From Thermoplasmatota archaeon (GTDB lineage Archaea > Thermoplasmatota > JAKEGO01): a stretch of DNA of 64,000 nucleotides. The DNA lies in contig JANQNK010000001.1 of assembly GCA_028279595.1 (NCBI GenBank), positions 128,001 to 192,000 of the forward strand, in the 5' to 3' direction. Shown in pieces: positions 15,697 to 58,087 of the stretch. The translations under genes and the position numbers were made by a program. Position 1 is the stretch's first letter. Every line of letters begins with the position of its first letter. The notes beneath the pieces are model-generated. The model saw only the letters and a list, made by a program, of their open reading frames with translations, did not search any database and was not told the origin of the DNA.

Positions 15697-15797
15697 AGCA
15701 AAATGCCCCGGTAGTGTCACGGGTGAAGTCCAAGGCCTTCACCCTGCTCGGGCGATCTGATCGCCCTCGAGCGACCTATCATCAGGCCTCGATGATA
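15697..15797 (+). repeat. Partial copy of the tRNA-Asp 5' end interrupted by a 52-nt double-hairpin insert (family A)
   Basis: AGCAaaATGCCCCGGTAGTGT[15718-15769]AGCGaCCTATCATC compared with the gene AGCAatATGCCCCGGTAGTGTAGCGGCCTATCATC. Confidence 0.85.
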
Positions 15798-15817
15798 ACC
15801 GGGTCCATTAGCAATAT

Positions 15818-15890
15818 GCCCCGGTAGTGTAGCGGCCTATCATCTCGGCCTGTCGAGCCGAGGACACGGATTCAAATTCCGTCCGGGGCG
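15818..15890 (+). tRNA. tRNA-Asp (GTC)
   Basis: Cloverleaf GCCCCGG...CCGGGGC-G; anticodon arm TCGGC-CT-GTC-GA-GCCGA; T loop TTCAAAT; CCA not encoded. Confidence 0.97.
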
Positions 15891-15915
15891 CTCTTCCTTC
15901 ATTTTACCTGTAGTC

Positions 15916-16007
15916 GCGCCCCGGACTCTCGTGAAGTTAATCCAACAGATTTCTGCCATTGATATTACAATGTGTACGGTCATAACCTTCACGATCCGTC
16001 CGGGGCG
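15916..16007. repeat. Palindrome with tRNA-Asp 3'-end arms around a TCGTGAAG/CTTCACGA stem (family C)
   Basis: GCGCCCCGGAC-TC-TCGTGAAG-(~50 nt AT-rich)-CTTCACGA-TCC-GTCCGGGGCG. Confidence 0.85.
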
Positions 16008-16010
16008 TTC

Positions 16011-16691
16011 TTAGAGCTCGTCCTTCAACTTCGTCAGGACGTACTCGCATCCCATGTGGGACCGGTCGAACCCCGTGACGACGTAACCGTCCGACATGAG
16101 TTCCGTGAACTTCTTCCTCGTCCTCTCGCGCCAGACCTTCGCAGCCTTCGGGTCCTCCGCCTTGATACCGGAAATGTCCTCCGGGATCTGCACCCTCTCG
16201 GGCGCCCCCTCGGATTCGGGTCTGACCGTCAGGTACCAGGATACGTAGAACCTGTCGGTGGCGAGGTCCCCATACAGTGTGGAATCGATCTTCCCGTAGT
16301 AATCAACGAGATATCTCTCGGCGATCCCGCCGATCTTCCTAATGTAGAGGTTGGCGTTGGCAGCCTCGAGCGGATCGTATGTCCAGAAGATGCGTTCGAT
16401 CCCCATCTCCCTGTAGGTCCAGGCCATCTCGGACATGAGCTCGTGGGCGATCCCCTTCGACGCGTGCGATGGGACCACTGCGACCTGATGCATCAAGGCG
16501 GAGCGCCAGTCAGGTCCCGGCAGTCCGAGAAGATAGCCAACGGGCCTGTCCCCGTCGTAGTAACCTAGGACGAGCCCCACAGGGTCCAGCTCGTCCGCAA
16601 TGGCCCTCAGAAGATGTACGGGAACGGTCTCGAGGTCGTTCTTTCCCCATGCGCCCTGCTGGACGTCGAGCATTCCACGGAGTTCGTCCAC
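16011..16691 (-). CDS. GNAT-family acetyltransferase
   Basis: HQVAVVPSHASKGIA, WTYDPLEAANANLYIRKIG, YG.....L...L.TDRF.V.W; start uncertain. Confidence 0.8.
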   Translation of the reverse strand: MDELRGMLDVQQGAWGKNDLETVPVHLLRAIADELDPVGLVLGYYDGDRPVGYLLGLPGPDWRSALMHQVAVVPSHASKGIAHELMSEMAWTYREMGIERIFWTYDPLEAANANLYIRKIGGIAERYLVDYYGKIDSTLYGDLATDRFYVSWYLTVRPESEGAPERVQIPEDISGIKAEDPKAAKVWRERTRKKFTELMSDGYVVTGFDRSHMGCEYVLTKLKDEL

Positions 16692-16719
16692 CTCGCGGAG
16701 ACGGACGACGCCGATGACA

Positions 16720-18216
16720 TCACTTCCCGGGACTTACCCTCGGCGCGTTCCTCAGCCATTCGATGTCGCTCATGTAGAGGTCTCGGATGTCCTTCAGACC
16801 GTGTTCGAGCATCGCAAGACGTTCGAGCCCAAGCCCCCACGCAAGGACGGGATGCCTGGCGCCCACGGGTTCGGTCACCTCGGGCCTGAAGATCCCTGCC
16901 CCGCCCAGCTCCATCCATTGGCCGTTGTAGAACACCTCGACCTCGAGGGACGGCTCGGTGTACGGGAAGTATCCGGGCCTTATCCTGACGTTGTCGAAGC
17001 CCATCCTGCTGTAGAACTCCTTCAGAAGGCCGACGAGCATTCCGAGGCTCGCCCCCTCCTCCATGACGATCCCCTCGATCTGGTAGAACTCCGGCAGGTG
17101 CGTCGAGTCTATCGCTTCCCTCCGGAAGACCGTCTCGATCGAGAAGACGCGGACCGGCGGCTCAGGGTCCTCCCTCAGCCGCCTGATGGTGTTGACAGTG
17201 GTGTGTGTCCTAAGGAGCATCCTGCGGCCGACGTCCTCCGACCAATCGTAACCCCATCCCCGGGACCCCGTGTCCCCACCGTCGCTGTGGACCGCTGCTA
17301 TGCGCTCCATGAGATCGCTATCGAGTTCGGGGCACTCGACCCCGTCTATGTACAATGTATCCTGAAGTTCCCTGGCCGGGTGGTCCTGGGGAATGAAGAG
17401 AACGTCCATGTTCCAGAAGGCCGACTCGACGAACTGACCCTCTATCTCCGTGAATCCCATCTCGAGGAATATCCGTCTGACGCGCTCGATCGTCCTCGTC
17501 ATCGGGTGCTCTCCACCTCCGGAGAGCGCCGGGGACATCGCGTCTATGTCGTACCTCCTGACGGAGACGTCCTTCCAACCCCCGCTTTGAATGAGCTCCG
17601 GTGTGAGCTGGGAGACCTCGTCCCTCTCGGACAGGTCATCCTCGCCAAGGCCTGAAACGGCATCGGTCGGGACGATCATTCGCGATACGACCTCGTCACG
17701 CACCACGGCGCCTCCTCGTTTCCTGAGAAGTTCGAGCGCATCGACCTGGGTTTCCGTGAACTCTCCCTTGGTGGTCATTCCCCCCTCCTTCAGGGCATAC
17801 AGGACCTCAAGCTCCGGAGACCCGGAGTCAAGGGCGTTCCTGCCCTCATCCGTGATCGTGACGGAACCCGAATCAATAGCGATGAACGCCTTCCTCTTGA
17901 GCCATCCCAGCCCTATGGAGAAGTCCTTGGGGTCCATGCCGCAGCCGTCCTTCAGCTCGCCCATGGACATGCCGTCATGGACGGACGCCAGGAGAACCAT
18001 CTCAGGCAGCCCCTCCTCGAGGAACTTCAGGCCCTCATCGCCGATGGAATAGACGACGTCGACCTCGTCCTCGATGGAGACGAGCCCCTTCTCCTTCAAC
18101 CAGGACGCGGCGTTCATGGCCTCGGGAGATGTCAGCCCTTCGATACCGTCGGGCGATACGGGACCGACGTCCCTCAGGGTCCTCAACACCCTCCGTTCAG
18201 CATTACTCAGGTCCAT
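16720..18216 (-). CDS. pheS: Phenylalanine--tRNA ligase alpha subunit (archaeal type)
   Basis: FWNMDVLFIPQDHPARELQDT, LLRTHTT, FRREAIDSTHLPEFYQIEG, YFPYTEPS, AWGLGLERLAM. Confidence 0.97.
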   Translation of the reverse strand: MDLSNAERRVLRTLRDVGPVSPDGIEGLTSPEAMNAASWLKEKGLVSIEDEVDVVYSIGDEGLKFLEEGLPEMVLLASVHDGMSMGELKDGCGMDPKDFSIGLGWLKRKAFIAIDSGSVTITDEGRNALDSGSPELEVLYALKEGGMTTKGEFTETQVDALELLRKRGGAVVRDEVVSRMIVPTDAVSGLGEDDLSERDEVSQLTPELIQSGGWKDVSVRRYDIDAMSPALSGGGEHPMTRTIERVRRIFLEMGFTEIEGQFVESAFWNMDVLFIPQDHPARELQDTLYIDGVECPELDSDLMERIAAVHSDGGDTGSRGWGYDWSEDVGRRMLLRTHTTVNTIRRLREDPEPPVRVFSIETVFRREAIDSTHLPEFYQIEGIVMEEGASLGMLVGLLKEFYSRMGFDNVRIRPGYFPYTEPSLEVEVFYNGQWMELGGAGIFRPEVTEPVGARHPVLAWGLGLERLAMLEHGLKDIRDLYMSDIEWLRNAPRVSPGK

Positions 18217-18267
18217 CCGTCCCTCGGAACGGTGTAGCGGTAATTAAAACTATCCGGTTTTCCGGGC

Positions 18268-18732
18268 TCAGATGAAGGGGCGGACGCTGGGCGATATCCG
18301 GACCTGGTACTTCTGCCCGCCGACCGAGACCGAGAAGATGACCTCCTTCCCCCGGGCCTTCCTCTTCGTCTTGGTCACCTCGTCGATGGGAAGGACCACG
18401 GTCTCCCTGAAACCCTTCTTGGCCCACCCTTTGGCCTGACCCATGAACTTCCGCCTGTCGTCGATCCAGCCGTGGCTCTCCGTCGCATAGGCGGTCATCG
18501 GGGGGATCCTGAGGAAGATGATGCGCCTGTCCGTCCTGTAGAGCTCTCCGGAACCAACGTCAGGGAAGACCATAGTTCCGAACAATCCGCCCCCCTTCGA
18601 GACCTCGCAACCTGCGTCCGTGTCCTGGACGACCACGACCTCGCCCTTCTCGAGGATGGGCACTCCCTTATCGTCGTGGATGCTCCCCAGCGGCTCCTTC
18701 ACGTTGCCGAAGTTGTAGTAGGCGATCTCCAT
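18268..18732 (-). CDS. Hypothetical protein (possible PH-like fold)
   Basis: 154-aa ORF with host-like codon usage, co-directional with neighbours; GELYRTDRRIIF resembles PH/GRAM-like motifs. Confidence 0.55.
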   Translation of the reverse strand: MEIAYYNFGNVKEPLGSIHDDKGVPILEKGEVVVVQDTDAGCEVSKGGGLFGTMVFPDVGSGELYRTDRRIIFLRIPPMTAYATESHGWIDDRRKFMGQAKGWAKKGFRETVVLPIDEVTKTKRKARGKEVIFSVSVGGQKYQVRISPSVRPFI

Positions 18733-18738
18733 GGGGGT

Positions 18739-21700
18739 CTACTCCCAGTCCACGTCCTCGTCGTCTTCGTCCTCATCCTCGTCGGCGTCTTCGTCCTCGT
18801 CGTCGAAGGACCAGTCGACATCCTCGTCTTCGTCCTTCTCCTTCTCTTCCTTGTCCTTCGCCGCTGCGCCCTTGACGGGCTTCTTCGTCCTGGTGAGGAG
18901 TCCGAGGATCAATCCGAGTGCTATCGGGATGACGATGGCGAGCACGATGATGAGCATGAAGAAGTCGCTACCAGTTTCACCATCGTCCCCGTTGGGGGGC
19001 TCCACACCCCTAATGCGGATCTCCTGGCCGGTGTTGTTGGTGACGGTTATCTGGTTCTTCCCGCTCGTCGCGGTGAAGGCGATCTCGTAGGTGCCGGAAT
19101 ATCTCATCTCCATCTTGATCTGGTAGGTGACACCGTCGATGTATTCCTGGGTCGTCGGTGTGTATCCAGATGTCCCGGTGTTCGGATTGATGGCATCCAG
19201 GTCGGTGACATTGTCGTTGTAACGGACCTTGATCTGTGTGGGCGCGTCCCCGTCCGGGTCCGAATAGACCACCGAGAACGTGAAGACGGTCGATGGAGTA
19301 CCACCCAATGGCGAGAACGTCATCTGATCCAGCAATGGAGCATTGTCGGCCTCCTCCACGGTGAACGGCCGCCATACGCTCGCTGTCTCCAACAGGCCGT
19401 CGGATGCGACGATCTGGTATCTGTAGGAATCGGCCCCGTAGTCGCCGTTGTCCGGTACGAAGGACCGCGAGTACTGGTAGTCCTTGCCGTCCCAGACGGA
19501 TTTGTCGGTCCTGTCCTTCTCGTCCATGTCGAAGGGTCCGTAGATCGTGCCGTCGCTCGTCCTCTCGAAGTACAGTTGGATGCTGTCAGGCCAGTTCTCG
19601 TCCCGGTCTGAGTAGTTGCACTTGAACCTTACCTGGGTGTTCTCGTCGGGCAGCAGCGGGGCGAACTGGACCTGGATCTCAGGGAGATAATCCACGGGGA
19701 AAGCTCCGTCGAGCTCGGCGACCTCGAAACCGTCCGAGGTCTCGATCTCGTAGGACCTGAAGCCGTTGTGGAGGTTGTCGATCTTCATCCAGAACTCCTT
19801 GCCGTTGAAGGTCGAGACATCGTCCACGTCCCTCTCGTACAGCGGAAGCGTGGGACTGCCCCACGTGTAGATGCGTCCCTCGAGGGCCATGGTGAGGTAT
19901 TCCACCGGGTCGTTATCGGGATCGGTGACGGTGATCATGAGGTCGTAGGGCGTGAACTCGTTCCCCTGGGCGGGATCGTAATCGAACTCGATCGAGGGAG
20001 CCGTGTTGTAGACCGTGATGTATTGGCTCGCTGTCATGTCCGTGAAGATGCCGTCGCTGACGTGGAAGTAGAACTCGTAGATGTCGTGGGGGGCGCCGCT
20101 GGTCGTGAATGCGTAGTAGGTCCCGAAGACCGGGGAGATGGCGTCCTGACGCTCCATCGGCCACGACCTGTTGTTGAAGAAGACGTAGGGCGCACCGTCG
20201 ACCGCGCTGTTGTCCGGATACTTCCCGTCGCTTTGCTGGTATTTTACCCTGAACGTGAAAGAGGTGGACGCGGTCCCGTTGTCCGGAGAGACCCTACCCT
20301 CGCTCAGTACCGGTCTCACGTAGTTAACGGACAGGTCCTCTGCCACCGGTGTCGGGGTCCAGTATCCGAGCGAGTCATTGGCGATGAAGTAGTAGGGGAA
20401 GATCCCGTTGTCAAGGATCAGGGATATGTTGTACATCACCCCGTTGACATAGTCGGTGGTGTTGTCCGACTTGGACATCGTGTGGTTGACACCGTCGATG
20501 TTCATGTACACCGTGCCCGGGACGTCGCCCTCGACATCGGTGTAGTTGATCGTGAAGTTGATCCAGGGATACCCGTCCGGGAATCCCCGTGTCTCGACCG
20601 GGTCCACCATGACCGGCGGTGCATTGTCCACGAAGACCTCCGACTGGTTGGTGGTCGTTGTCTCGCGGGTGTCGTTGAACTCGAACCAGTAGGTGTAGGT
20701 GTTACGCATGAGTGGGAGACTGATCTCGTAATGGGCGTTCGTGAAGTCGGTGTCGATCGTGGTCATGGTGTGCTCGACGCCGTTGACCCATACGCTGCTG
20801 ACCGTGGGCTCCTGACCCTCGTCGTCCATGTAGATGCAGTGGAATGCGACCGGTATGTCCGACGTGTAGTCGTCCGCCTGCACGTATCCGTTCAGGGTCG
20901 CCGGGTCGTTCGCGGTTACCAGGACCTTCCCTTCCTTTGACGTATCGACGTCCCTTGTCCCGATCCATGTCCCCGTGTCGATCTCGATCTCGGTGAGGTT
21001 GTAATGCTTGCCCGACAGGTCAGCGTATATGTACGGAACATCGATGTCGTAGATCATTCCCAGCGAGTCGGTCCTCGCGTCCGTTCCCGAGAATCCGGTG
21101 GTGGCGTATATCGTCCCCTCCTCGCAGGTGACCTTCACGTCGGCGTTCTGTGCGGCCGTTCCGTCGACCAGGTCGACCTCGATGTCTATCTCGTTCCGCG
21201 AGGAGACCCATCCGCTCCCCTGGGCGTTGAACGTGCCGGTGCTGTTGTTCAGATATTCGACATTTCTCAGGATAAGGCGCGAGTCCTGCACCACTCCATC
21301 ATATCCGTAGAACGTGTCCCCGTAGAAGGTCACGTCGGTGATCGTGGCATTGCACCTGTCCTGGAGGTACACCGCCTCCCTCAGGTTCCCGAAGTAGATG
21401 TTGGTCGCAGTGACATCGGAGCCGTCGTAGAGGTAGAGCCCCTTCTTCTGGGTCTCCGCATCGGTCCCGTTGAGGTACATGTCGGTCAGGACGACGGATG
21501 AGCTGTCGGGGACGTAGACGCAGGTCCCCTCGGCCTCGATGCTCCCTGTCACGTCGATGAGCGAGCTGTCGTCGATCCTAAGTCCCCTGGAGGGTAAGGC
21601 CCACAGGTCCAGTGTGAAATCGATATCCGTGACGGAATCGATGTCGATCCCATACGCGGTCAGCCCGGTGCCTGTCATCTCCACGGTGATGGCGGTGCAT

Positions 21701-22356
21701 CCTCCCTGGAGCTCGATCCCGGTCGGGGCTCCCTCGATGTACAGGTCCCTTGAGCCGGACGCACCAATGGTGACGTCGGAACACGTGAAGGCCGATATCC
21801 CGAACTTCACCGAATCCCGTATCTCGAGCCCCTCGAGGGTGGAGTCGCCGACCTTGGACAGGAACACGCCCCAGCTGTTCTCGCTGAAGTCACAGTCCGT
21901 CACCAGCAGGCTGGACACCTCTTCCGCGAAGACCCCGTACTTGTTGTCGTACAGCTCGCAGGTCTCGATGGTCACGGCGTCCGCGTCGACGTACACACCC
22001 GCGTAGACCTGACCTCCGCCCCCGAGCTTGGAGTTGGAGAAGTTGAGGTTAAGCAGGGTGACCCCGTCTGCGATGACGTAGGATCCGTTGCCGGTCCCGT
22101 TCGCATCGATAATGACCTTCCCGGCGTTCCTCCTGATGGTCAGGTTCGCCACGTCCACGACGAGGTTCCCGTCGTAGGAGCCGTTGTTGACCAGGACCAG
22201 GTCCCCGTCCGCCGCGTTGTCGATGGCGTCCTGAATGTTGTCGTAGTCGAATCCGCCGCTGTCGTCAACGGTGATCGTGGCGCCTTCCGAGGTAATACCA
22301 ACCAATGAAAGGAGAGTGAACGCTACTAGCACCATCACAAGATACCTGACAGACAT
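18739..22356 (-). CDS. Surface protein: parallel beta-helix (NosD/CASH-like), ~6 Ig-like repeats, TM helix, acidic tail
   Basis: Signal peptide; ATITVDDSGG.DY.NIQDAIDNA; beta-helix repeats; repeated F...Y.D.(D/E)G..P units; TM segment; D/E-rich C-terminus. Confidence 0.82.
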   Translation of the reverse strand: MSVRYLVMVLVAFTLLSLVGITSEGATITVDDSGGFDYDNIQDAIDNAADGDLVLVNNGSYDGNLVVDVANLTIRRNAGKVIIDANGTGNGSYVIADGVTLLNLNFSNSKLGGGGQVYAGVYVDADAVTIETCELYDNKYGVFAEEVSSLLVTDCDFSENSWGVFLSKVGDSTLEGLEIRDSVKFGISAFTCSDVTIGASGSRDLYIEGAPTGIELQGGCTAITVEMTGTGLTAYGIDIDSVTDIDFTLDLWALPSRGLRIDDSSLIDVTGSIEAEGTCVYVPDSSSVVLTDMYLNGTDAETQKKGLYLYDGSDVTATNIYFGNLREAVYLQDRCNATITDVTFYGDTFYGYDGVVQDSRLILRNVEYLNNSTGTFNAQGSGWVSSRNEIDIEVDLVDGTAAQNADVKVTCEEGTIYATTGFSGTDARTDSLGMIYDIDVPYIYADLSGKHYNLTEIEIDTGTWIGTRDVDTSKEGKVLVTANDPATLNGYVQADDYTSDIPVAFHCIYMDDEGQEPTVSSVWVNGVEHTMTTIDTDFTNAHYEISLPLMRNTYTYWFEFNDTRETTTTNQSEVFVDNAPPVMVDPVETRGFPDGYPWINFTINYTDVEGDVPGTVYMNIDGVNHTMSKSDNTTDYVNGVMYNISLILDNGIFPYYFIANDSLGYWTPTPVAEDLSVNYVRPVLSEGRVSPDNGTASTSFTFRVKYQQSDGKYPDNSAVDGAPYVFFNNRSWPMERQDAISPVFGTYYAFTTSGAPHDIYEFYFHVSDGIFTDMTASQYITVYNTAPSIEFDYDPAQGNEFTPYDLMITVTDPDNDPVEYLTMALEGRIYTWGSPTLPLYERDVDDVSTFNGKEFWMKIDNLHNGFRSYEIETSDGFEVAELDGAFPVDYLPEIQVQFAPLLPDENTQVRFKCNYSDRDENWPDSIQLYFERTSDGTIYGPFDMDEKDRTDKSVWDGKDYQYSRSFVPDNGDYGADSYRYQIVASDGLLETASVWRPFTVEEADNAPLLDQMTFSPLGGTPSTVFTFSVVYSDPDGDAPTQIKVRYNDNVTDLDAINPNTGTSGYTPTTQEYIDGVTYQIKMEMRYSGTYEIAFTATSGKNQITVTNNTGQEIRIRGVEPPNGDDGETGSDFFMLIIVLAIVIPIALGLILGLLTRTKKPVKGAAAKDKEEKEKDEDEDVDWSFDDEDEDADEDEDEDDEDVDWE

Positions 22357-22399
22357 GGAACATCGCCAGCCCATTTAAACCACGGATTGGATATATAAT

Positions 22400-24442: not shown

Positions 24443-24568
24443 GGGCGGCCAAGGCCCAGAGGGTTCAAAAGCATTCCCTGTAGGGGTCGGTGAAATTGCT
24501 TTCTTCCGGATGGTAGGTTCCGGACCTGTAGTATAAACGACGGGTGACATGGGAATATCGGTGAGGAT

Positions 24569-25060
24569 GTGAGGCGAACCCTCGACGAGCTGATAGACAG
24601 TGTGCTCGAGAACGAGACCAGGCGCAGGATATACATGCACCTGCTGAGGACCCCGGGAGACCACTACCGCGGGATCATGAGAGCAGTGGGGATCGGCAAC
24701 GGCAACCTGTCGTACCACATGCAGGTGATGGAGAAGGCGAGGACAGTGAAGGTCCGGAGGACCCCGGGACGGACGAGGTACTATCCCGCCGAGATCAACC
24801 CAGGACCAGTCCAGAATGACCTGAGGCGGTCACTGATGTTCACGATCGCAACGTCACCCGGGGTCACTGACCGAAATCTGTCGGTCAAGTTCGAGCGTTC
24901 TGTAAGATGGATACGGGAGAACCTTGTCATCCTTGAAGATTCAGACCTCATCGGGATAACAAGAGGCAGAGCGACCTGGAGATGTTTCCTACAGGTGCCA
25001 GAGGAGAACGTTTTCTCGATGAATCCGAGTGGGCTGTTGCATTCACCGACTGGAATATAG
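24569..25060 (+). CDS. Tandem winged-helix transcription regulator (ArsR-like)
   Basis: LENETRRRIYMHL..TPG.HY..I......GNGNLSYHM.V; second unit I...PG.T...LS. Confidence 0.75.
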   Translation: MRRTLDELIDSVLENETRRRIYMHLLRTPGDHYRGIMRAVGIGNGNLSYHMQVMEKARTVKVRRTPGRTRYYPAEINPGPVQNDLRRSLMFTIATSPGVTDRNLSVKFERSVRWIRENLVILEDSDLIGITRGRATWRCFLQVPEENVFSMNPSGLLHSPTGI

Positions 25061-25062
25061 AA

Positions 25063-25117
25063 GCGGACCCGCGGGGATTCGCGCAGCAGATGCTTCGCAT
25101 CAGCGCGGTTCGCGAAC
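25063..25117 (-). repeat. Partial copy of the tRNA-Arg 3' end with a GATGC/GCATC hairpin at the T loop (family B)
   Basis: 19 nt (25063-25081) identical to 25210-25228, then hairpin GATGC-TTC-GCATC, then GGTTC and GCGAAC. Confidence 0.85.
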
Positions 25118-25210
25118 AGATTGAGAGATTATTGCCAGCCAGTTCACGAACAACCCTATTGGAGAGCGGGTTCTCAATCGCGGGACCTCTAATTTACGTA
25201 TGAAAATAGG

Positions 25211-25284
25211 CGGACCCGCGGGGATTCGAACCCCGGACATCCAGCTTAGAAGGCTGGCGCCCTATCCAGCTAGGCCACGGGCCC
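25211..25284 (-). tRNA. tRNA-Arg (TCT)
   Basis: GGGCCCG...CGGGTCC-G; anticodon arm CCAGC-CT-TCT-AA-GCTGG; GTTCGAATC. Confidence 0.97.
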
Positions 25285-35503: not shown

Positions 35504-35708
35504 GGTACTGACTTCCGGATCCGTGAAAAAGGCTGTGGTCCCGACTCCCGGATCGGTGAAAAAGGCTGCTGGATAAAATCGCGATTTTCACCGAGAGGGA
35601 GCCGCATCACGATATTCCTGAACATCGTCGAGGTGACAGCGACCGGATCCACGAAAAAGGGATTCGGAGACCTATAATTCTATTTCGTGGAGAGGGAGTT
35701 GGGACCAC
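35504..35708. repeat. Array of tRNA-Tyr 3'-end copies joined to GAAA/TTTC stems (family C; two full units and one partial)
   Basis: 19 nt (35535-35553) identical to 35733-35751; stems TCGGTGAAAA/TTTTCACCGA and TCCACGAAA/TTTCGTGGA, each followed by GA and an inverted tRNA end. Confidence 0.85.
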
Positions 35709-35733
35709 GTCACTTTGAGAGTAATAAGAAAAG

Positions 35734-35840
35734 TGGTCCCGACTCCCGGATTTGAACCGGGGACCTGCCGGTCTCGGCAGCATGGCAGAGAGCCAATGGA
35801 TCTACAGCCGGCCGCTCTAGCCAGTCTGAGCTAAGTCGGG
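35734..35840 (-). tRNA. tRNA-Tyr (GTA) with 29-nt intron at 37/38 (35773-35801) and encoded CCA
   Basis: CCCGACT...AGTCGGG-A-CCA; GCCGG-CT-GTA-G[intron]A-CCGGC; GTTCAAATC. Confidence 0.93.
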
Positions 35841-35898
35841 ACTAATGCGGAAAAGAAGGAATGCCATATAAATATCTTTCATAGACGGCCGGCCGCCG

Positions 35899-36010
35899 CC
35901 CGCTCTACGAGGGAACGTGAGTTCCCGAGCACGCACATCCGTAGGGTGTGCTGTGGCCAGTCTGATCTAAGTCGGGACCCAAGCGGTAAAGAAGGAATGC
36001 CAAATGAATA
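35899..36010 (-). repeat. Partial copy of the tRNA-Tyr 5' end and upstream region interrupted by a 48-nt double-hairpin insert (family A)
   Basis: CCCGACTTAGaTCAGACTGGC[35955-35908]TAGAGCGG; upstream flank also duplicated (GCGG.AAAGAAGGAATGCCA). Confidence 0.85.
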
Positions 36011-49057: not shown

Positions 49058-49076
49058 TCATGATTCTCAATATCTA

Positions 49077-51683: not shown

Positions 51684-51744
51684 TTCATGGACGATAGTAT
51701 CCTCGCTCTTGATATCCTTCGGAAGTACCTTAAAACTTGCCCTG

Positions 51745-53292
51745 TCAGTGGAGGAACGTCCTCTGGCCAGATATCACCATGGCGATGCCGTGGTCGTCGG
51801 CCGCCTTGACGACCTCCTTGTCCTTGATCGAGCCGCCGGGCTGGATTATCGCCGAGATCCCAGCATCGGCCGCTGTCTCGACGCTGTCGGGGAACGGGAA
51901 GAAGCCGTCCGACGCCATTGCGGCGTTCTTGGCCTTCTTTCCGGCCTGATGCACTGCTATGGAGACGGAGTCGACCCTGGCCATCTGCCCAGCGCCGATA
52001 CCGACCGCCCTCGAGCCCTTTGCGACCACGATGGCGTTCGACTTGACATGTGTGCAGACCTTCCACGCGAACATCAGGCTCTTCCATTCGTCATCCGTGG
52101 GGCTCCTGATCGTGGCCGTCGTCATCCTGTCCTTCGCGTCGAGGTCCCGGCGCTGTCCGAGGAACGCGTTGCCTAGGCTTCTCAGCTCCAGCTCGTCGGC
52201 CTTGATCCTCGTCATGCCAGGCCATTTGATGACCCTGAGGTTCCTCTTCTTCGAAAGCACCTCGAGGGCCGATTCCGTGAACTCCGGTGCCACGACGACC
52301 TCGGTGAAGACCTTGATTATCTCTGCTGCGACGTCACCGCTGAGTTCCCGGTTCGTTCCAACGATACCGCCGAACGCTGCCCTCTTGTCGCACTCCAACG
52401 CTTGCTTATAAGCCTTCATCGGGTTGCTCGCGGATGCAACACCGCAAGGGTTGGTGTGCTTGATGATGACGACGGTGGGGCCGTCGAACTCGGAGACGAT
52501 CCTCGCAGCAGCGTCGATGTCCAGGAAGTTGTTGTAGGACATAGGCATCCCGTGGACCTGCTCCGCGTCGATGACCGACTCCCCTTCCTTCCACGTGTAG
52601 AGAGCACCTGTCTGGTCCGGGTTCTCGCCGTACCGGAGCTCGCTGGCCATGTTGAGCTTCAGGTCTATCCTCTCGGAGTGAACGGCCTCTTCCGTAGCGA
52701 CGGGGGTCTGTCCTCCTGACAGGTATCCATGTATCGCCGCGTCATATCTGCTGGTATGTAGGAACCCCTCCTGTGCAAGGGATGCGAGCGTGTCCTTGCC
52801 GATCCCTCCGGAGAGGTCGATCTCCGCGAGGACGGGAGCGTACTGTTCCGGCGATACGAGCACCGCGACGTCATCGTGGTTCTTCGCGGCCGCCCTGATG
52901 AGGCTAACGCCCCCGATGTCGATGTTCTCGATCATCTCGTCGTGGGCCTTGCCCAGCTCGAGGCACTTCTCGAACGGATAGAGGTTTACCACGACCATGT
53001 CGATGGTGCCGATGCCGAACTCACCGAGTACGGCCATGTGAATGGGATTGTCCCTCCTCGCTAGGATGCCCGCGTATATGTTCGGATGGAGGGTCTTCAC
53101 CCTTCCACCGAGGAGCTCGGGAGTGTCGGTGATCGTCTCGATCCGGGTGACGGGAATGCCTCCCTTCTCGAGGGTCAGGGCTGTGCCTCCGGTGGATATT
53201 ATGTCGACGTCCATTTCGGCCAAACGGCCCGTGAACTCCACTATGCCAGTCTTATCCGATACGCTGACCAGAGCCCTGCTAGGTCTCAACAT
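51745..53292 (-). CDS. purH: Bifunctional AICAR transformylase / IMP cyclohydrolase
   Basis: RALVSVSDKTG, STGGT, GRVKTLHP, IDIGG, LRYGENP.Q, KHTNPCG, ASDGFFPF.D. Confidence 0.97.
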   Translation of the reverse strand: MLRPSRALVSVSDKTGIVEFTGRLAEMDVDIISTGGTALTLEKGGIPVTRIETITDTPELLGGRVKTLHPNIYAGILARRDNPIHMAVLGEFGIGTIDMVVVNLYPFEKCLELGKAHDEMIENIDIGGVSLIRAAAKNHDDVAVLVSPEQYAPVLAEIDLSGGIGKDTLASLAQEGFLHTSRYDAAIHGYLSGGQTPVATEEAVHSERIDLKLNMASELRYGENPDQTGALYTWKEGESVIDAEQVHGMPMSYNNFLDIDAAARIVSEFDGPTVVIIKHTNPCGVASASNPMKAYKQALECDKRAAFGGIVGTNRELSGDVAAEIIKVFTEVVVAPEFTESALEVLSKKRNLRVIKWPGMTRIKADELELRSLGNAFLGQRRDLDAKDRMTTATIRSPTDDEWKSLMFAWKVCTHVKSNAIVVAKGSRAVGIGAGQMARVDSVSIAVHQAGKKAKNAAMASDGFFPFPDSVETAADAGISAIIQPGGSIKDKEVVKAADDHGIAMVISGQRTFLH

Positions 53293-53402
53293 GCGCACAC
53301 CCCCAATATCTGGCCTAACGGCCCCCCGACAATAGCGCAACGTCTACTTTAATGTTGGGTCATTGGACGGTCCGGAACGTCGATGGCCGACGTCGAAGAA
53401 CA

Positions 53403-54488
53403 TCACTGATGGGACTTCGCGGTGTTCCCCATCAGGTGCAGTGCCGCAAGGGTCCCGATGGGTATCCTCGGGTCCGCGAACTCGCCGACGAACGTGCCCG
53501 ATCCCTGGAAGGCGCGCCCCTCGCCGAAGCATCTTCCGAGCTCCTCTCCGGCGTCGTTGACGGCGCTGAGGTCGAACGCGTAGCCGCCGGGCCCGGTGGT
53601 CATGTCACCCTTCATGGAGAGCAGTTTGCCGTCCGAGAACTGCAGGAAGATCGTCCGGGTGTCCCCGCTGAGCTTCTCGTACATGAACGCCAGGAGACCG
53701 TCTGTCGGAGTGAGTATCCTGAATACAGCGACGTTGGGGTCGATGACCTCGAGCTTGAGGTGGTCCTCGTCCTTGGCTCGGAACACCACGATCTCGGGGG
53801 ACCTCTCGCTACCTGTCAGGGAGACCTTCGGTCCCGAAGCATCGAAGAGGACCCTTCCCCCGTCGATCCTCATCCTAGTGGTGAACCTGGTCGGTCCCTC
53901 TGGGATCTCGGGTTCTGGAGGACCCGGAGCCCTCTTGACAGGCGGAGCGCCCCTGCCCTTCGGCGGCGGGCCCCTCCGTGGAGGTGGTGGTGGCGTCGGT
54001 ACCTGCAGGACCTTACCGACGACGACATCCTTCCCTCCCTTCACGGGCCTTCCCTTCGCCTGCCTCCTCATCGCCTTCCTTTCCGCCTTCTTACGCCTCG
54101 CCATGTCCTTTTCCCGCTGCTTCCTCGAGAGCGGTTTCATGGTCACGACCTTCGGCTCGGATGGAGGCGGTGGGGGTGGAGGCGTCTGCGGAACCTCCTG
54201 GAACGCCTGCTCGGGTGGGGGAGGTGGCGGTGGCAGGTCCCTCTTCTCGGGGAGCGGCTCCGACTCCGGTCTCGGCGGCGCCCCGCCGGGGAGCTCGGAA
54301 CCCTTCTCGGCGACCTCCTTCTCCTCCGGGGTAGACATCACCGCCGACGGCATCTTCGATGGCTTGATATTGACATTGGATTTGAAATTGCATCCCGGGC
54401 ACGAGATCATGAACTTGCCAGGACTGTCCGGGAGCTCGGTCGTGAACTCCTTCTTGCACTTCGGACACCTGATCTTCTGAACGCCCAT
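53403..54488 (-). CDS. Hypothetical protein: N-terminal Zn ribbon, Pro/Lys-rich linker, C-terminal globular domain
   Basis: CPKC...CPGC; poly-Pro tracts; co-directional with neighbours. Confidence 0.65.
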   Translation of the reverse strand: MGVQKIRCPKCKKEFTTELPDSPGKFMISCPGCNFKSNVNIKPSKMPSAVMSTPEEKEVAEKGSELPGGAPPRPESEPLPEKRDLPPPPPPPEQAFQEVPQTPPPPPPPSEPKVVTMKPLSRKQREKDMARRKKAERKAMRRQAKGRPVKGGKDVVVGKVLQVPTPPPPPRRGPPPKGRGAPPVKRAPGPPEPEIPEGPTRFTTRMRIDGGRVLFDASGPKVSLTGSERSPEIVVFRAKDEDHLKLEVIDPNVAVFRILTPTDGLLAFMYEKLSGDTRTIFLQFSDGKLLSMKGDMTTGPGGYAFDLSAVNDAGEELGRCFGEGRAFQGSGTFVGEFADPRIPIGTLAALHLMGNTAKSHQ

Positions 54489-54490
54489 GA

Positions 54491-55204
54491 TCAACCCTCG
54501 TTCATCAGCTCCTCGATGACTGACAACATCCGCTCGAATATATAATCGTTGACTCTCTCCCCGAACTCGGCCGACGCAATGGTGGCGTCCCCTGTCCCGC
54601 CATCAGGGAACATGACCTCGGGGTCCGGGCGGATGATGTAGCGGGACGTCCGTTCAGTCCTCAACGCTTTCCCCTCGCCCACCAGTTCGGGACGGGCGAC
54701 CATCATCCTCGATGTCTCCATCATGCCGGCATGGCCGTCGCCATCGGGTATGTCCTCGAAGCCGTACCCGACCTCGTAGCACGAGAGGACAGCGATCCTG
54801 ACACCCCTGTTCCTTACCACATCCCCTGCGGCGAACCTTAGAGCGGCCATGTGACCGCTTCCAGCGTGACTGGACATTACGAGAACGTGCTTGAAACCAT
54901 CCTCCACCACCTGGTCAAGGATATCATGGACGATGCTCCTGACGGATTCTGGACGAACTGCTATCGTCCCGGAGAAGTTTCTAGTGGACGAACACTGGCC
55001 ATACGGGATCCCCGGCAGTATCACGACACCATCCATCCGTTCTGACAATCCCTCGACGACGTGGAGAGCGGTCTGCCAGTCGGTGCCTGTCGGCAGATGG
55101 GACCCGTGCCCCTCGATCGCCCCTACTGGGAGCACCAGGAGCGTCCTGTCCCTGTCAAGGTCCCTTATCTCGTCAGCGTTCAGCTCCTCCCAGAGTACAG
55201 GCAT
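54491..55204 (-). CDS. Creatininase / creatinine amidohydrolase family protein
   Basis: LPVGAIEGHGSHLPTGTD, SHAG, HAG..ETS. Confidence 0.9.
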   Translation of the reverse strand: MPVLWEELNADEIRDLDRDRTLLVLPVGAIEGHGSHLPTGTDWQTALHVVEGLSERMDGVVILPGIPYGQCSSTRNFSGTIAVRPESVRSIVHDILDQVVEDGFKHVLVMSSHAGSGHMAALRFAAGDVVRNRGVRIAVLSCYEVGYGFEDIPDGDGHAGMMETSRMMVARPELVGEGKALRTERTSRYIIRPDPEVMFPDGGTGDATIASAEFGERVNDYIFERMLSVIEELMNEG

Positions 55205-55422
55205 TGTATCCCCCGACCCCGATTGTGCTCGGTCAATTAACATTTTCCCATGTTCTACACATGCGATAGCCGTACCTTGCCCCGTTCGGACCTCGATAAG
55301 ATACTCCTATTTTCTCGCTCATGTCAAAACATCGAACCAATGTCTATTAAAGATGTAAAAAGACCGCACTAATCTTGACTTAAACCTCGGCCGTCTAGTA
55401 TTATTCAGAGGAGAGGAAAAAG

Positions 55423-55521
55423 ATGGTGAAGGAAAACAGGTTCGAGATGGTCCGGTTCGATCTCAAGAGGCCCAACCGCTACACGATGATCGACGGAAAC
55501 CTCATCCGCGTCTTCGAGTGA
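55423..55521 (+). CDS. Putative 32-aa microprotein
   Basis: MVKENRFEMVRFDLKRPNRYTMIDGNLIRVFE; strong SD (GAGGAGAGG); host-like codons. Confidence 0.45.
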   Translation: MVKENRFEMVRFDLKRPNRYTMIDGNLIRVFE

Positions 55522-55607
55522 ACGGGACTCGCTCGGAGTAGACTGGAGACCGTGGTACCTACCATCAGCTCTCTTCTTCAAGCCAAGGAAAGGGGAAAGG
55601 TGAGAAC

Positions 55608-55934
55608 ATGTACGACTCTGTCGGCGATACCGTCGTGGCCGGGGAACTACTGATCAAGAACGCCCTGAAGGGCGAGATCGAAAGGAGGATACTGGAACTA
55701 CTTCAGACACGCTTCAAGGGCACAGCTTCCCTGGTGGACCTCGAGATCATGATGAGGCTGCCAAGGGAGGAGATGGCCCTGGAGCTGGTGAACCTCTACA
55801 GGGCGGGACTGGTCTCGAAGGAGGTCCGGGCAAGCCCGGGAGCCAGGCCGTACATGAGGACCTGCATCTACACGATCACCGAAAAGGGCATTGACGGACT
55901 CCTGCGGCTCAACGGGGACGTGGAGAAGAAGTAA
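55608..55934 (+). CDS. Winged-helix DNA-binding protein
   Basis: RRILELL ... L..L...GLV.K ... Y.ITEKG; GGTGA SD. Confidence 0.7.
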   Translation: MYDSVGDTVVAGELLIKNALKGEIERRILELLQTRFKGTASLVDLEIMMRLPREEMALELVNLYRAGLVSKEVRASPGARPYMRTCIYTITEKGIDGLLRLNGDVEKK

Positions 55935-56036
55935 TTCTAGGACACTGTAGGAGTATGGTGTGGCATCCCATTTTCCTCTGATTATGGGTGGTGGAAGGGT
56001 ATAAGTATCGAATAACGAAATTGCCCACGAGGGACC

Positions 56037-56837
56037 ATGAAAGAGTCTGTCATGTTGATATGCATTCTACTCCTTATAGGATCAACTGGTTGCATCGAAG
56101 ATAAAGACGATTCGAAAGGAACGAGGAATAAAGCTGGAACACCTCCTGATATCGCCGGTGATCATAATTGGTTCTACGGAAAGTTGATCGAATCGGCCGA
56201 TATGGAAACATTAATTTACTACGAAGCGAACGATCTTGAGGTTACGATCAAAGAAGGTTATGACTATTCAAATTTGACCGAACTGGAGTATATTACTTGG
56301 GTCATTATAGATAAAACCGGTACCCGATCAGCTTTCGAAGATTGGGTGCGATGTGATGATGGCATTAACATTCGGTTTCCTCTTACAGGAACACCACCGT
56401 TCTCCTTGTCCGTTCGAGCATCACTGATCATTGATATCGAATTCTCGGAAAAGGTCTATTGGTATTACTCACAGTACGAAGATAGAAACGTTAAGATCGA
56501 TTTATCACCAGGCATTTTAAGCACGCATGACGAAGCCGTATTCGATCTGGACCATCTTCTTGCTGAGAGTCCGAACGGGATTGGACTACATATTGACGGA
56601 ATTGACGATGAAGGAAATCTCACCATTTATGAACCAGATGGAACCATATTTTATTGGCACAATCGCGAAGGAGGATCCACTGAATCAAACTGGGCTAATC
56701 AATCACTTGACTGTCAAGGATGGCAAATCGAGTTGGACCTTCATCAGGAGTCGACCGGACAAACCACCTGGAATGTCACAATAAGATATCGTATTGTAGA
56801 CCCTGACATTCTGGAATCATTGGGATTCGATATTTAG
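56037..56837 (+). CDS. Putative lipoprotein, low GC
   Basis: Lipobox-like LLIGSTGC; AT-richer codons than the flanking genes. Confidence 0.65.
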   Translation: MKESVMLICILLLIGSTGCIEDKDDSKGTRNKAGTPPDIAGDHNWFYGKLIESADMETLIYYEANDLEVTIKEGYDYSNLTELEYITWVIIDKTGTRSAFEDWVRCDDGINIRFPLTGTPPFSLSVRASLIIDIEFSEKVYWYYSQYEDRNVKIDLSPGILSTHDEAVFDLDHLLAESPNGIGLHIDGIDDEGNLTIYEPDGTIFYWHNREGGSTESNWANQSLDCQGWQIELDLHQESTGQTTWNVTIRYRIVDPDILESLGFDI

Positions 56838-56980
56838 CTGGGTAGCGGGTACAGGGACCGGACGTCGACAAGAATTTACGAGAAGAGAAAAGTCCAGGCC
56901 AGACTATCTCTAATTAACCGTTGTGTCACGGTCCGACCGCAATTTTGATAGATGATGTACCTTATCCGCCTTCGGTTCAC

Positions 56981-57880
56981 ATGGACCTTCAGAAGCGAGG
57001 AGAGCGCATAGCGGCGGTCACCGCAGTATTCCTGATCTCGGTAGGTGTGCTTCAGATCGTCCTCGGTCAGACCATCTCCAAGAGCGTCGCGCTCACTGCC
57101 AATGGCATCGACTGTGTGGGCGACGGCTTCATCTCGTTCATCGTTTTCATCGGATTCCGGTATGTCCGGCGGCCGGCAGATCACAAGTACCATTTCGGTT
57201 ACTACAAGTTCGAGAGCGTGGCTTCGGTCGCTGCCGCCACGGTGATGGTGTTCCTGGCGGTCTACATCATATGGAGGTCCTACCTGCAGGTGCTCGATCC
57301 CCACGAGGTGGAGAACGTCGTGCTCGGAGCGTCCGTCGCCTATATCGCCGCTGCTGGAGCGATCGCACTAGGAGTGTACAAGTATCGGAATGCCAAGGCG
57401 ATGGAGCTGGGTTCCGCTCGACTGGAGGCGTTCAATACGGTCAAGGACGGAACGGCGTCGTTCCTGGCCGCAACCTCTCTCGTCATATCCAGCATGGGCT
57501 ATCCCATAGCCGACGCCATCGCGGGCTTCATCATCTCGATAATCCTGCTTTTCGTGGGTTTCACGGCGATGAAGGAAGCTGGATACATCCTCGTCGACGC
57601 CTGCGATTACAAGTGCATCGATTACAGTGCGGTCATCCGGAAAAGATTGTCAAAATACGAGGAGATCAGGGACAGGAAGGTCAGCCTTCGTCGGACGGGT
57701 CCTGTTTACATGGGCGAGATCATCATCGAGGTGGACGGGGAGATGACGATCGAGCACATCGACGGCCTGCGGGAGAAGGTCAGGAAGGACGCTGTCCGGG
57801 TGGTCCCCAACCTGGAGAGGCTGACCATCAGCGCCGTCCCTTTCGTTGAAAAGGACCCCGATGAAGAACCCGACCAGTAG
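56981..57880 (+). CDS. Cation diffusion facilitator family transporter
   Basis: SVAL.A..ID...D, RPAD..YHFGY.KFE, DAIAG; C-terminal dimerisation domain. Confidence 0.9.
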   Translation: MDLQKRGERIAAVTAVFLISVGVLQIVLGQTISKSVALTANGIDCVGDGFISFIVFIGFRYVRRPADHKYHFGYYKFESVASVAAATVMVFLAVYIIWRSYLQVLDPHEVENVVLGASVAYIAAAGAIALGVYKYRNAKAMELGSARLEAFNTVKDGTASFLAATSLVISSMGYPIADAIAGFIISIILLFVGFTAMKEAGYILVDACDYKCIDYSAVIRKRLSKYEEIRDRKVSLRRTGPVYMGEIIIEVDGEMTIEHIDGLREKVRKDAVRVVPNLERLTISAVPFVEKDPDEEPDQ

Positions 57881-57893
57881 GCGAGGGGAAGAT

Positions 57894-58087
57894 CGGGTGC
57901 CGGACCAGTGAAAAGTAATGTATTGACGAGAATCCTTTTCACTGGGCCAGTCGATCCCGCAGGATCGACGTAAATAAGCAGGAATCAGCACCATCCTTCG
58001 TGTCAACCTGGAATTGACGTAAGAAGGATGGTGCGGGTGCCGGGATTTGACCGTGATGATGCAAAGCATCATCCGGGTTCCTCAAAT
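57894..58087. repeat. Stacked palindromes containing tRNA-Gly 3'-end copies (family C stem 57905-57945; family B unit 58029-58087)
   Basis: CGGGTGCCGGA-CCAGTGAAAAG/CTTTTCACTGG; GTCGATCC/GGATCGAC; GCACCATCCTTC/GAAGGATGGTGC; 20 nt (58031-58050) identical to 58190-58209, then GATGATGC-AAA-GCATCATC and GGTTC. Confidence 0.85.

What the first reader, a model, noticed from the sequence alone, without database searches (positions are those of the whole stretch)
15697..58087. All four tRNA genes are flanked by self-copies broken by palindromic inserts: candidate tRNA-targeting miniature element system
Seen: each tRNA gene (Asp 15818, Arg 25211, Tyr 35734, Gly 58191) has one or more short copies of its own 5' or 3' end within about 300 nt. 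These copies are interrupted or capped by hairpin modules. The modules form three families, each recurring at different tRNAs (A: Asp and Tyr; B: Arg and Gly; C: Asp, Tyr and Gly). Stem sequences differ between loci but keep their pairing and short fixed linkers. 5' copies lie upstream and 3' copies downstream of the intact gene. No integrase, transposase or reverse transcriptase is in the window. Known: tyrosine integrases duplicate tRNA ends (att sites), and HUH enzymes such as RAYT/TnpA act on ssDNA hairpins (REPs). Plain att scars do not explain shared, covarying hairpins at fixed cloverleaf positions. Inference: non-autonomous structure-defined elements mobilised in trans that use tRNA D and T loops as targets, or retained decoy att sites or antisense RNAs. 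I do not recognise this as a named family.
Basis: partly seen in the sequence, partly recalled or inferred. Interest (0 to 1): 0.85.

Follow-up and report, generated by a model that had tools for sequence, protein, structure and literature searches.

The report
Hairpin modules docked on tRNA ends
All four tRNA genes in this stretch of an uncultured Thermoplasmata archaeon are flanked by small gene-less, strongly folding DNA modules built from a forward and a mirror copy of the tRNA's own end. They belong to an apparently undescribed family that looks like tiny site-specific insertions, but the enzyme that moves them is unknown.

Summary
Of 42 tRNA genes, 18 carry an exact self-copy of 13 nt or more within 500 nt (random control 0.7%). 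All 16 copies of 3' ends lie downstream and all 4 copies of 5' ends lie upstream.

- B is a 127-132-nt three-hairpin unit. A covariance model finds 17 copies in this genome, 16 directly behind a tRNA and one at the far end of an integrase-bearing insert behind tRNA-Arg. It also finds copies behind tRNAs in four other Thermoplasmatota genomes.
- C is a one-hairpin unit.
- A is the mirror-image unit on the 5' side.

Each unit is a spacer, an antisense copy of the tRNA end, hairpins, and a sense copy. The antisense arm mirrors the proximal end plus its trailer.

Relatives show both compensatory stem changes (Asp) and turnover: at the orthologous Arg-TCT site there is one B unit here and two C units in a close relative.

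My best reading (about 0.5) is non-autonomous insertion modules that recombine within the tRNA's terminal segment. No HUH, RT or Cas1 gene was found; tyrosine integrases use the same site, but the one subfamily tested does not co-occur with the modules.

This scan has reported the same family before on other pieces of this genome and in other archaea. I found no publication describing it.

The parts
15705..15805 (+). 5'-side module of tRNA-Asp (family A). In order: sense 5' copy 15705-17; hairpin 1 15718-46; hairpin 2 15747-71; resumed D arm 15772-83; loop plus antisense of the D arm and of the 5' acceptor strand 15784-805.
   Evidence: Conserved in L207 with two compensatory changes in hairpin 1. 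A degenerate version is present in G001.
15818..15891 (+). tRNA-Asp(GTC)
15892..16007 (+). 3'-side type-3 (family C) module of tRNA-Asp. In order: T-rich spacer 15892-915; antisense arm 15916-26; TCT linker, hairpin CGTGAAG..CTTCACG and AT linker 15927-95; sense 3' copy 15995-16007.
   Evidence: Orthologues in L207 and G001 keep the stem through compensatory changes.
25064..25208 (-). Type-1 (family B) module behind tRNA-Arg(TCT). In order: spacer 25190-208; antisense arm 25174-89; hairpin I 25151-73; hairpin II 25109-50; hairpin III 25082-108; sense 3' copy 25064-81.
   Evidence: (R1 hit of 89.9 bits).
25209..25284 (-). tRNA-Arg(TCT)
35504..35733 (-). Three stacked type-3 (family C) units behind tRNA-Tyr. 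Unit 1 is 35643-733, with its copy cut down to CCGG. A 41-nt filler follows. Unit 2 is 35536-601, with a truncated antisense arm and a full 18-nt copy. Unit 3 is a remnant at 35504-35.
   Evidence: The relative L210 has the same two hairpins in complete units.
35734..35840 (-). tRNA-Tyr(GTA) with a 29-nt intron and an encoded CCA
35888..35976 (-). 5'-side module of tRNA-Tyr (family A). In order: sense 5' copy 35956-76 (one mismatch); hairpin 1 35930-55; hairpin 2 35908-29; resumed tRNA body 35888-907. The promoter region 35841-87 follows.
   Evidence: The 5' copy and both hairpins are absent from the 77%-aa relative L210.
58031..58189 (-). Type-1 (family B) module behind tRNA-Gly(GCC). In order: spacer 58164-89; antisense arm 58140-63; hairpin I 58118-39; hairpin II 58077-117; hairpin III 58051-76; sense 3' copy 58031-50, followed by CCA.
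   Evidence: (R1 hit of 101.8 bits). This unit is absent at tRNA-Gly(GCC) of G001.
57894..58033 (-). Type-2 module, stacked behind the type-1 unit. In order: hairpin CACCATCCTTC..GAAGGATGGTG 57989-58033; spacer; hairpin GTCGATCC..GGATCGAC 57950-69; TGG linker, family-C hairpin and T linker 57904-49; partial 3' copy 57894-903.
   Evidence: Homologous units lie behind Gly-TCC and Leu-TAA and on C14, and sit directly behind tRNA-Gly(GCC) in G001.
58190..58263 (-). tRNA-Gly(GCC), with no encoded CCA

Best explanation
The copies belong to a lineage-wide family of gene-less modules of 95-160 nt that are docked on the ends of tRNA genes.

A 3'-side module consists of, in order:
- a T-rich spacer that looks like a tRNA terminator;
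- an antisense copy of the tRNA's 3' end;
- one to three hairpins;
- a sense copy of the last 13-22 nt, starting in the T loop.

A 5'-side module is the mirror image. It has a sense 5' copy broken in the D loop by two hairpins, then an antisense stretch, then, in some units (Lys, Arg-CCT), a second copy of the promoter.

Most likely each module entered by recombination inside the terminal segment of the tRNA gene. On this reading the module supplies a new gene end plus terminator or promoter, so the gene stays intact. The old end is pushed outward as the distal copy, and repeated events build stacks.

I infer, but have not shown, that the sense arm plus the start of the spacer pairs with the antisense arm in a folded single strand or small circle. 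That fold would imitate the duplex attachment site, as integron attC sites and the CTX phage attP hairpin do. I also infer that a recombinase supplied in trans does the exchange.
For: Tie to tRNA ends:
- Strict polarity and enrichment of the copies at tRNA ends.
- Of the 17 type-1 copies in the genome, 16 lie directly behind a tRNA. The seventeenth lies at the far end of a 5.3-kb integrase-bearing insert behind tRNA-Arg that ends in that tRNA's 14-nt copy.
- The same model finds units directly behind tRNAs in G001, G002, G021 and G058.

Gain, loss and replacement:
- Gly-GCC: G001 has tRNA(CCA) followed by type 2. Here a type-1 unit sits between a CCA-less tRNA and a CCA-bearing copy followed by type 2.
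- Asp: L207 has one extra unit bounded by the repeat.
- Arg-TCT, between the same flanking genes: one type-1 unit here, two type-3 units and no R1 hit in the 92%-aa relative L207.

Spread between tRNAs with similar ends:
- The C14 Arg type-2 unit is 87% identical to the Leu-TAA type-2 unit.
- The L207 Arg-TCT type-3 loop closely resembles the Arg-CCG type-3 loop of this genome.

Link to integration:
- Ordinary integrase-borne elements in this genome use the same sublocation. The 14.5-kb element at tRNA-Pro has an 18-nt repeat running from the T loop to the 3' end.

Shape of the module:
- The antisense arm mirrors the proximal end plus 1-7 nt of its trailer in 11 units, and never the distal trailer. 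This is expected if the proximal end, spacer and antisense arm arrived together.
- Stems are kept by compensatory change while loops drift, which points to a single-stranded fold.
Against: - No enzyme has been identified. The tRNA-adjacent integrase subfamily (C7, C14, C19) was not found in the module-bearing genomes G001, G002, G021 and G058. Those genomes are 73-94% complete.
- No Y1/HUH, RT or Cas1 gene was found, and no TnpB above the cut-off.
- No free or circular form has been seen, and no two units are near-identical, so nothing shows recent movement.
- The conventional integrated elements lack an antisense arm.
- The Asp modules are conserved across genera with compensatory changes. 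That fits a host function as well as it fits a mobile element.
- The test for a strand-specific fold is inconclusive. G.T against A.C counts are 14:1 on the model alignment (which is biased), 7:1 with a finder that scores only Watson-Crick pairs, and 8:9 over all module types.
Confidence: 0.5

Rival explanations
1. The units are host-kept structured RNAs or processing signals linked to tRNA genes. They would be analogous to the tRNA-linked repeats of E. coli, or to tRNA-like 't-elements' cut by RNase P and RNase Z. The units would be transcribed, alone or by read-through, and their fold closed by tRNA-end sequences would be the functional part.
For: - Stems are kept by compensatory substitutions across genera while loops diverge.
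- Type 1 has a fixed length of 127-132 nt.
- AT-rich boxes in the spacers sit at roughly promoter distance from the antisense arm (read by eye, not tested).
- G.T outnumbers A.C on the tRNA-sense strand in type-1 helices.
- E. coli TLRs also end in 18-19 nt of the upstream tRNA or rRNA 3' end, and three of them are sRNAs (PMC8144298).
Against: - Different unit types occupy the same orthologous site in close relatives, and units come and go.
- Many tRNAs have no unit (24 of 42).
- The antisense arm pairs through the discriminator, the CCA and into the trailer. It therefore copies DNA or the primary transcript, not a mature tRNA top half.
- T-runs lie between the tRNA and the antisense arm.
- No Rfam family matches.
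- No expression data could be obtained.
Confidence: 0.22
2. The units are passive scars. They would be remnants of attachment sites and arm sequences left by conventional integrase-borne elements after internal deletion and repeated integration (accretion), with no mobility or function of their own.
For: - Genuine integrated elements with 14-18-nt repeats at the same sublocation exist in this genome.
- On C14, a decayed element whose integrase carries an internal TAA stop shares one array with a type-1 and a type-2 unit.
- The post-tRNA spacer motif (CTCTAGC-like) is shared by type-3 units and the ends of the integrated elements (read by eye).
Against: - Scars should decay. Instead there is a fixed architecture and length, compensatory evolution, and the same design behind 16 or more different tRNAs and in several families of the phylum.
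- The integrated elements at tRNA-Pro and at the two tRNA-Leu genes show neither an antisense arm nor hairpins I-III next to their att sites.
Confidence: 0.15
3. The units are REP/REPIN-like or IS200/IS605-derived hairpin elements moved by an HUH (Y1) transposase acting on single-stranded DNA.
For: The inserts are pairs of adjacent hairpins of 48-75 nt placed in single-stranded-prone loops. Structure is more conserved than sequence.
Against: - No Y1_Tnp match in the genome (86% complete) and no TnpB above the cut-off.
- These families make no long target duplication and are scattered through intergenic DNA. Here every copy is at a tRNA end, with a 13-22-nt duplication.
- There is no constant target tetranucleotide at the junctions.
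Confidence: 0.04
4. The units are local replication or repair products: fold-back (snap-back) synthesis and slippage at tRNA gene ends, homogenised by gene conversion, with no element involved.
For: - The palindrome is centred on the spacer, and the antisense arm mirrors the proximal end plus its trailer.
- The promoter plus 5' end is tandemly duplicated at Arg-CCT and Lys.
Against: - It does not explain hairpins that are conserved in sequence and position at unlinked tRNAs and in other genera. An example is GGATGATGCGAAGCATCATC in G000 and G001.
- It does not explain the replacement of one unit type by another.
Confidence: 0.05

Closest known systems
Attachment-site duplications of tyrosine-integrase elements in tRNA genes (T-loop sublocation, tandem accretion)
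   Same: - A direct repeat runs from the T loop to the 3' end.
- The tRNA gene is reconstituted.
- Units are stacked.
- The same genome holds real examples: tRNA-Pro with an 18-nt repeat and tRNA-Arg on C14 with a 14-nt repeat.
   Different: - The units are 95-160 nt and hold no gene at all.
- They carry an antisense copy of the att sequence and conserved hairpins.
- A mirror-image version exists on the 5' side.
- No cognate integrase has been identified.
tRNA-linked repeats (TLRs) of E. coli (Egan and Landy 1978; Rudd 1999; as described in PMC8144298)
   Same: Repeat units lie downstream of tRNA or rRNA genes, each ending in 18-19 nt identical to the 3' end of the upstream gene. They occur at several loci with one to five units each, and their function is mostly unknown.
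   Different: - TLRs are bacterial.
- The paper read (PMC8144298) does not mention an antisense arm, a shared multi-hairpin architecture or a 5'-side version.
- No sequence relation was tested or is expected.
- TLRs are reported as co-transcribed with their operon.
Integron attC sites and the CTX-phage attP hairpin (folded single-strand substrates of tyrosine recombinases)
   Same: These are imperfect palindromes of 60-150 nt in which structure is conserved more than sequence. Their paired arms imitate a duplex core site, and the units stack in arrays. This rests on my own knowledge of those systems and is a resemblance only.
   Different: - No IntI-type gene, attI site or R'/R'' core motif is seen here.
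- The units carry no cassette gene.
- The arms are copies of a tRNA end.
- Nothing here shows single-strand recombination.
REP/BIME/REPIN elements with RAYT, and IS200/IS605-derived miniature elements
   Same: They are short, gene-less, hairpin-based repeats that are conserved in structure.
   Different: - No Y1/HUH gene was found.
- Those families are dispersed through the genome and make no long duplication of the target.
- The units here sit only at tRNA ends.

Membership tests
Integrase-borne integrative element at a tRNA gene | Direct repeat of a tRNA segment at both ends of the insert, with an intact tRNA gene | tested here: met
   Exact repeats of 13-22 nt, and the tRNAs are intact by RF00005.
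Integrase-borne integrative element at a tRNA gene | A recombinase gene inside the insert | tested here: not met
   The units are 95-160 nt with no room for an ORF. Contig C4, which contains the window, has no PF00589 hit.
Integrase-borne integrative element at a tRNA gene | Presence or absence of the insert between related genomes at the exact repeat | tested here: met
   Shown by the Gly-GCC type-1 unit (G000 against G001), the extra Asp unit in L207, and the Arg-TCT type-1 unit replaced by two type-3 units.
E. coli tRNA-linked repeats (TLR) | A unit downstream of a tRNA or rRNA gene ending in about 18-19 nt of that gene's 3' end | tested here: met
   and the definition in PMC8144298.
E. coli tRNA-linked repeats (TLR) | Transcribed as part of the tRNA or rRNA operon and processed | not testable with these tools
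REP/REPIN-RAYT or IS200/IS605-derived miniature element | A Y1 (HUH) transposase of the family in the genome | tested here: not met
   PF01797 gave no match in G000, which is 86% complete.
REP/REPIN-RAYT or IS200/IS605-derived miniature element | Copies dispersed in intergenic DNA with no long target duplication | tested here: not met
   All full R1 hits lie in tRNA-anchored arrays and carry 13-22-nt duplications.
Casposon-derived miniature element | A Cas1-type casposase in the genome and constant terminal inverted repeats | tested here: not met
   PF01867 gave no match. The unit ends are not constant inverted repeats.
Integron attC site | An imperfect palindrome conserved in structure, not sequence | tested here: met
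   This is a resemblance only.
Integron attC site | An IntI integrase with attI, and R''/R' core motifs (RYYYAAC / GTTRRRY) | not tested
   IntI-specific features were not searched for. No such core motifs were noticed in the unit alignments.
tRNA or any Rfam family | Scores above the family threshold | tested here: not met
   Only the four tRNAs score. No family reaches E<=0.9 on the Asp and Gly arrays.

The most novel reading that the evidence does not exclude
The modules are a new kind of recombination unit. Each would be a gene-less element whose folded single strand, with the antisense arm paired to the sense arm, imitates the duplex end of a tRNA gene. That would let it be spliced into and out of either end of tRNA genes by a recombinase not yet recognised. 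In effect it would be an attC-like system that uses tRNA gene ends as its docking sites and is spread across several archaeal phyla.
Probability: 0.25. Interest if true: 0.85.

Novelty: new variant of a known kind. Interest (0 to 1): 0.7.

Why it matters
If these are mobile, they would be the smallest site-specific insertion modules known at tRNA genes. They would also be the first to carry a built-in mirror copy of their target. That would give a direct handle on how attachment-site specificity shifts from one tRNA to another, and on a recombination route in archaea that is still unrecognised.

If instead they are kept by the host, nearly half of this organism's tRNA genes come with an unknown structured companion.

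Either way they matter for annotation. They mimic tRNA halves, fill whole intergenic regions, and can mislead tRNA, intron and prophage-boundary callers.

Tried and rejected
- Metagenome scans: a neighbouring 1211-aa protein and the exact tRNA-Asp sequence both found nothing.
- Hairpin-III motif in IMG/VR: 7 hits, all chance hairpins. None gave a full R1 match with a convincing score and none lies beside a tRNA.
- The same motif in genome contigs: mostly chance bacterial hits. It did identify G001 as the MAG 'Thermoplasmata archaeon PMV_4.75'.
- Integrase co-occurrence: the tRNA-adjacent integrase subfamily was not found in module-bearing relatives.
- Strand test by G.T against A.C: three versions disagree, so I draw no conclusion.
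- The idea that a palindromic T loop (TTCGAA) causes orientation-ambiguous recombination: dropped, because units at TTCAAAT-loop tRNAs (Cys, Gly-TCC) do not fit.
- The idea that the antisense arm descends from the tRNA's own 5' acceptor strand: the one G.U site I examined (Arg-TCT) fitted neither source.
- RNAalifold on 12 type-3 units gave no structure because the 3' sides were out of register. A 7-row subset was counted instead.
- ARAGORN calls of tRNAs with 185-1206-nt 'introns': the two examined on C4 lie inside coding sequence and are spurious.
- L209, a relative of the gene next to tRNA-Gly, is not syntenic and has no tRNA.

Full report
**What is there.** The window is G000:C4:128001-192000 of a 2.29-Mb MAG with 58% G+C that is 86% complete. 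Its only same-family relative in the genome set is the MAG 'Thermoplasmata archaeon PMV_4.75'. ARAGORN and Rfam find four tRNA genes: Asp, Arg-TCT, an intron-bearing Tyr, and Gly-GCC.

**More than chance, and genome-wide.**
- RF00005 finds 42 tRNAs.
- Eighteen have an exact self-copy of at least 13 nt within 500 nt. The rate is 6% for non-cognate pairs and 0.7% for random places.
- All 16 direct copies of 3' ends lie downstream and all 4 direct copies of 5' ends lie upstream.
- Every direct copy is anchored at the tRNA's terminus.

**Anatomy of the 3'-side units.**
It consists of a T-rich spacer, an antisense arm, hairpin I (GAACCC..GGGTTG), a long variable hairpin II, hairpin III (typically CCGGATGATGCGAAGCATCATCACGG), and a sense copy running from the T loop to the 3' end. 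Measured from 22 nt before GAACC to the end, it is 127-132 nt in all eleven first examples.
- Type 2 (Gly) stacks behind type 1. It ends in a type-3-like hairpin plus a partial copy.
It consists of a spacer, an antisense arm, a TCT or TGG linker, one hairpin, an AT or T linker, and a sense copy.
- On an 11-row alignment the three type-1 helices are 90% paired, against 34-44% when partners are slid. Fifteen of 23 pairs show compensatory change.
- The type-3 inner stem is 96% paired, against 27-37%, and 4 of 7 pairs are compensatory.

**Distribution.** A covariance model of type 1 (R1) finds 17 copies in this genome. Sixteen lie directly behind a tRNA. The seventeenth (C14:117322-117448) lies with a type-2 unit at the far end of a 5.3-kb segment. 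That segment starts at tRNA-Arg (C14:112204), carries a broken integrase, and ends in a 14-nt copy of that tRNA's 3' end. Among 60 relatives, R1 hits 8 places in G001. It gives one or two hits each in G002, G021 and G058, and each of those lies directly behind a tRNA. Self-copies with the same polarity flank tRNAs of G001 and G002.

**A new point on design.** R1 also matches the antisense strand of tRNA-Leu itself. The left part of type 1 (..GGATTCGAACCC) is an antisense copy of the acceptor 3' strand plus the T arm. Hairpin I pairs the antisense T stem with a sense T stem, and the sense copy is interrupted in the T loop by hairpins II and III.

The 5'-side family A is the mirror image. It has a sense 5' copy interrupted in the D loop by two hairpins (CAC..TG, then CTCGGG..CCCTCG), then the rest of the D arm, a loop, and an antisense stretch. 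In Asp this reads CTATCATC aggcctc GATGATA ACCGGGTC. The antisense stretch is clear in Asp and not evident in Tyr. The same 5' layout occurs at Ala tRNAs of G001 and G002.

So families A and B are one design applied to either end of the gene. The uninterrupted antisense arm faces the tRNA and the interrupted sense copy lies distal.

**The antisense arm belongs with the proximal end.** In 11 units its exact complementarity runs 1-7 nt past the tRNA end into the proximal trailer, farther than into the distal trailer. The reverse never occurs. An example is GCACCATTCC / GGAATGGTGC at two Leu tRNAs. The arm therefore copies gene plus trailer, not a mature tRNA. The proximal end, the spacer and the antisense arm behave as one piece.

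**Relatives.**
- Contig L207 carries an RNase J-like neighbour 92% identical in protein and shows the same gene order from the archaellum genes to L11. It has both Asp modules. Stems are kept by compensatory changes: GGGTGAAG/CTTCACCC becomes GGACGAAG/CTTCGTCC, and CGTGAAG/CTTCACG becomes CGCGAAG/CTTCGCG. Loops have diverged, and there is one extra short unit bounded by the repeat.
- G001, a different genus, also keeps the Asp type-3 unit, with two further compensatory changes.
- At Arg-TCT, between the same two genes, this genome has one type-1 unit. L207 has two tandem type-3 units and no R1 hit. G001 has type 1 there.
- At Gly-GCC, G001 has tRNA(CCA) followed directly by type 2. Here a type-1 unit lies between a CCA-less tRNA and a CCA-bearing copy followed by type 2.
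- At Tyr, the 77%-aa relative L210 has the same two hairpins in complete units but lacks the 5' copy with its two hairpins.
- Units at different tRNAs with similar ends are close kin. The C14 Arg type-2 unit is 87% identical to the Leu-TAA one, and the L207 Arg-TCT type-3 loop resembles the Arg-CCG one here.

Taken together, there is both structural constraint and turnover.

**Enzymes.**
- The genome has seven tyrosine recombinases, four of them next to tRNAs.
- The element at tRNA-Pro (C7) is 14.5 kb and has an 18-nt repeat running from the T loop to the 3' end. That is the same sublocation the modules use.
- No Y1/HUH, RT or Cas1 gene was found, and no TnpB above the cut-off.
- The C7/C14/C19 integrase subfamily was not found in G001, G002, G021 or G058. 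A link to these integrases is therefore circumstantial.

**Known families.** No Rfam family matches the modules. Full-text searches and the review of archaeal tyrosine recombinases gave no description of such units. The nearest published parallel is the E. coli tRNA-linked repeats, which have 18-19 nt of the 3' end at each unit's end and a mostly unknown function.

Earlier notes of this scan describe the same family on other pieces of this genome, and similar modules in haloarchaea and DPANN archaea. I treated these as leads only.

My best reading (0.5) is non-autonomous insertion modules that recombine within the terminal segment of tRNA genes, bring a replacement end with its terminator or promoter, and probably act as a folded strand. 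That they are units which come and go at exact repeats is shown. The folded-att mechanism and mobilisation in trans are inferred.

The main rivals are a host-kept structured RNA (0.22) and passive integration scars (0.15).

Noticed in passing
window 35734-35840 (-): The tRNA here is Tyr(GTA) with a 29-nt intron after position 40 and an encoded CCA. ARAGORN without intron mode miscalls it as tRNA-Glu(CTC) at 35734-35825.
   Followed up: partly
G000:C7:7343-21947 (L206, L075): A 14.5-kb integrated element sits behind tRNA-Pro(TGG). It has a 330-aa tyrosine integrase next to the tRNA and an 18-nt direct repeat (CAAATCCGGGCGGGCCCA) at its far end.
   Followed up: partly
G000:C14:112204-117597 (L205): A 5.3-kb segment lies behind a tRNA-Arg. 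Its integrase is broken: one search reads a TAA stop inside it, and the ORF list shows separate SAM-like and catalytic ORFs. It also holds a beta-helix protein and several ORFs without Pfam hits. It ends in a type-1 unit, a type-2 unit and a 14-nt copy of the tRNA end, immediately upstream of a tRNA-Leu that has its own type-2 unit.
   Followed up: partly
G000:C5:29000-30743 and G000:C1:10000-11760: Two closely similar integrative elements, alike over at least 1.1 kb including an integrase, sit behind tRNA-Leu(CAA) and tRNA-Leu(GAG). Contig C5 has a lower G+C content (0.51) than the rest of the genome (about 0.575).
   Followed up: no
window 25058-25064 and 16007-16013: The modules fill the intergenic space completely. 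The distal copy behind tRNA-Arg starts 4 nt after the stop codon of ORF 24569-25060. The distal copy behind tRNA-Asp ends 4 nt before the end of ORF 16011-16691 (-).
   Followed up: no
L023 (G021) and L024 (G058): Type-1-like units occur behind tRNA-Gly and tRNA-Arg in Thermoplasmatota genomes of other families. The matched stretches have only 41-44% G+C. Hairpin I is reduced to a 2-3-nt loop there. G058 shows a second, weak hit in tandem (E about 4e-5).
   Followed up: partly
G000:C3:47881-48140 (L003): Behind tRNA-Gln(CTG), an inverted copy of the 3' end is split by a 21-nt insert. It is followed by two tandem units of a different hairpin type (GGGTGA..TCACCC gaagcc). G001 has the same inverted copies behind its tRNA-Gln.
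   Followed up: no
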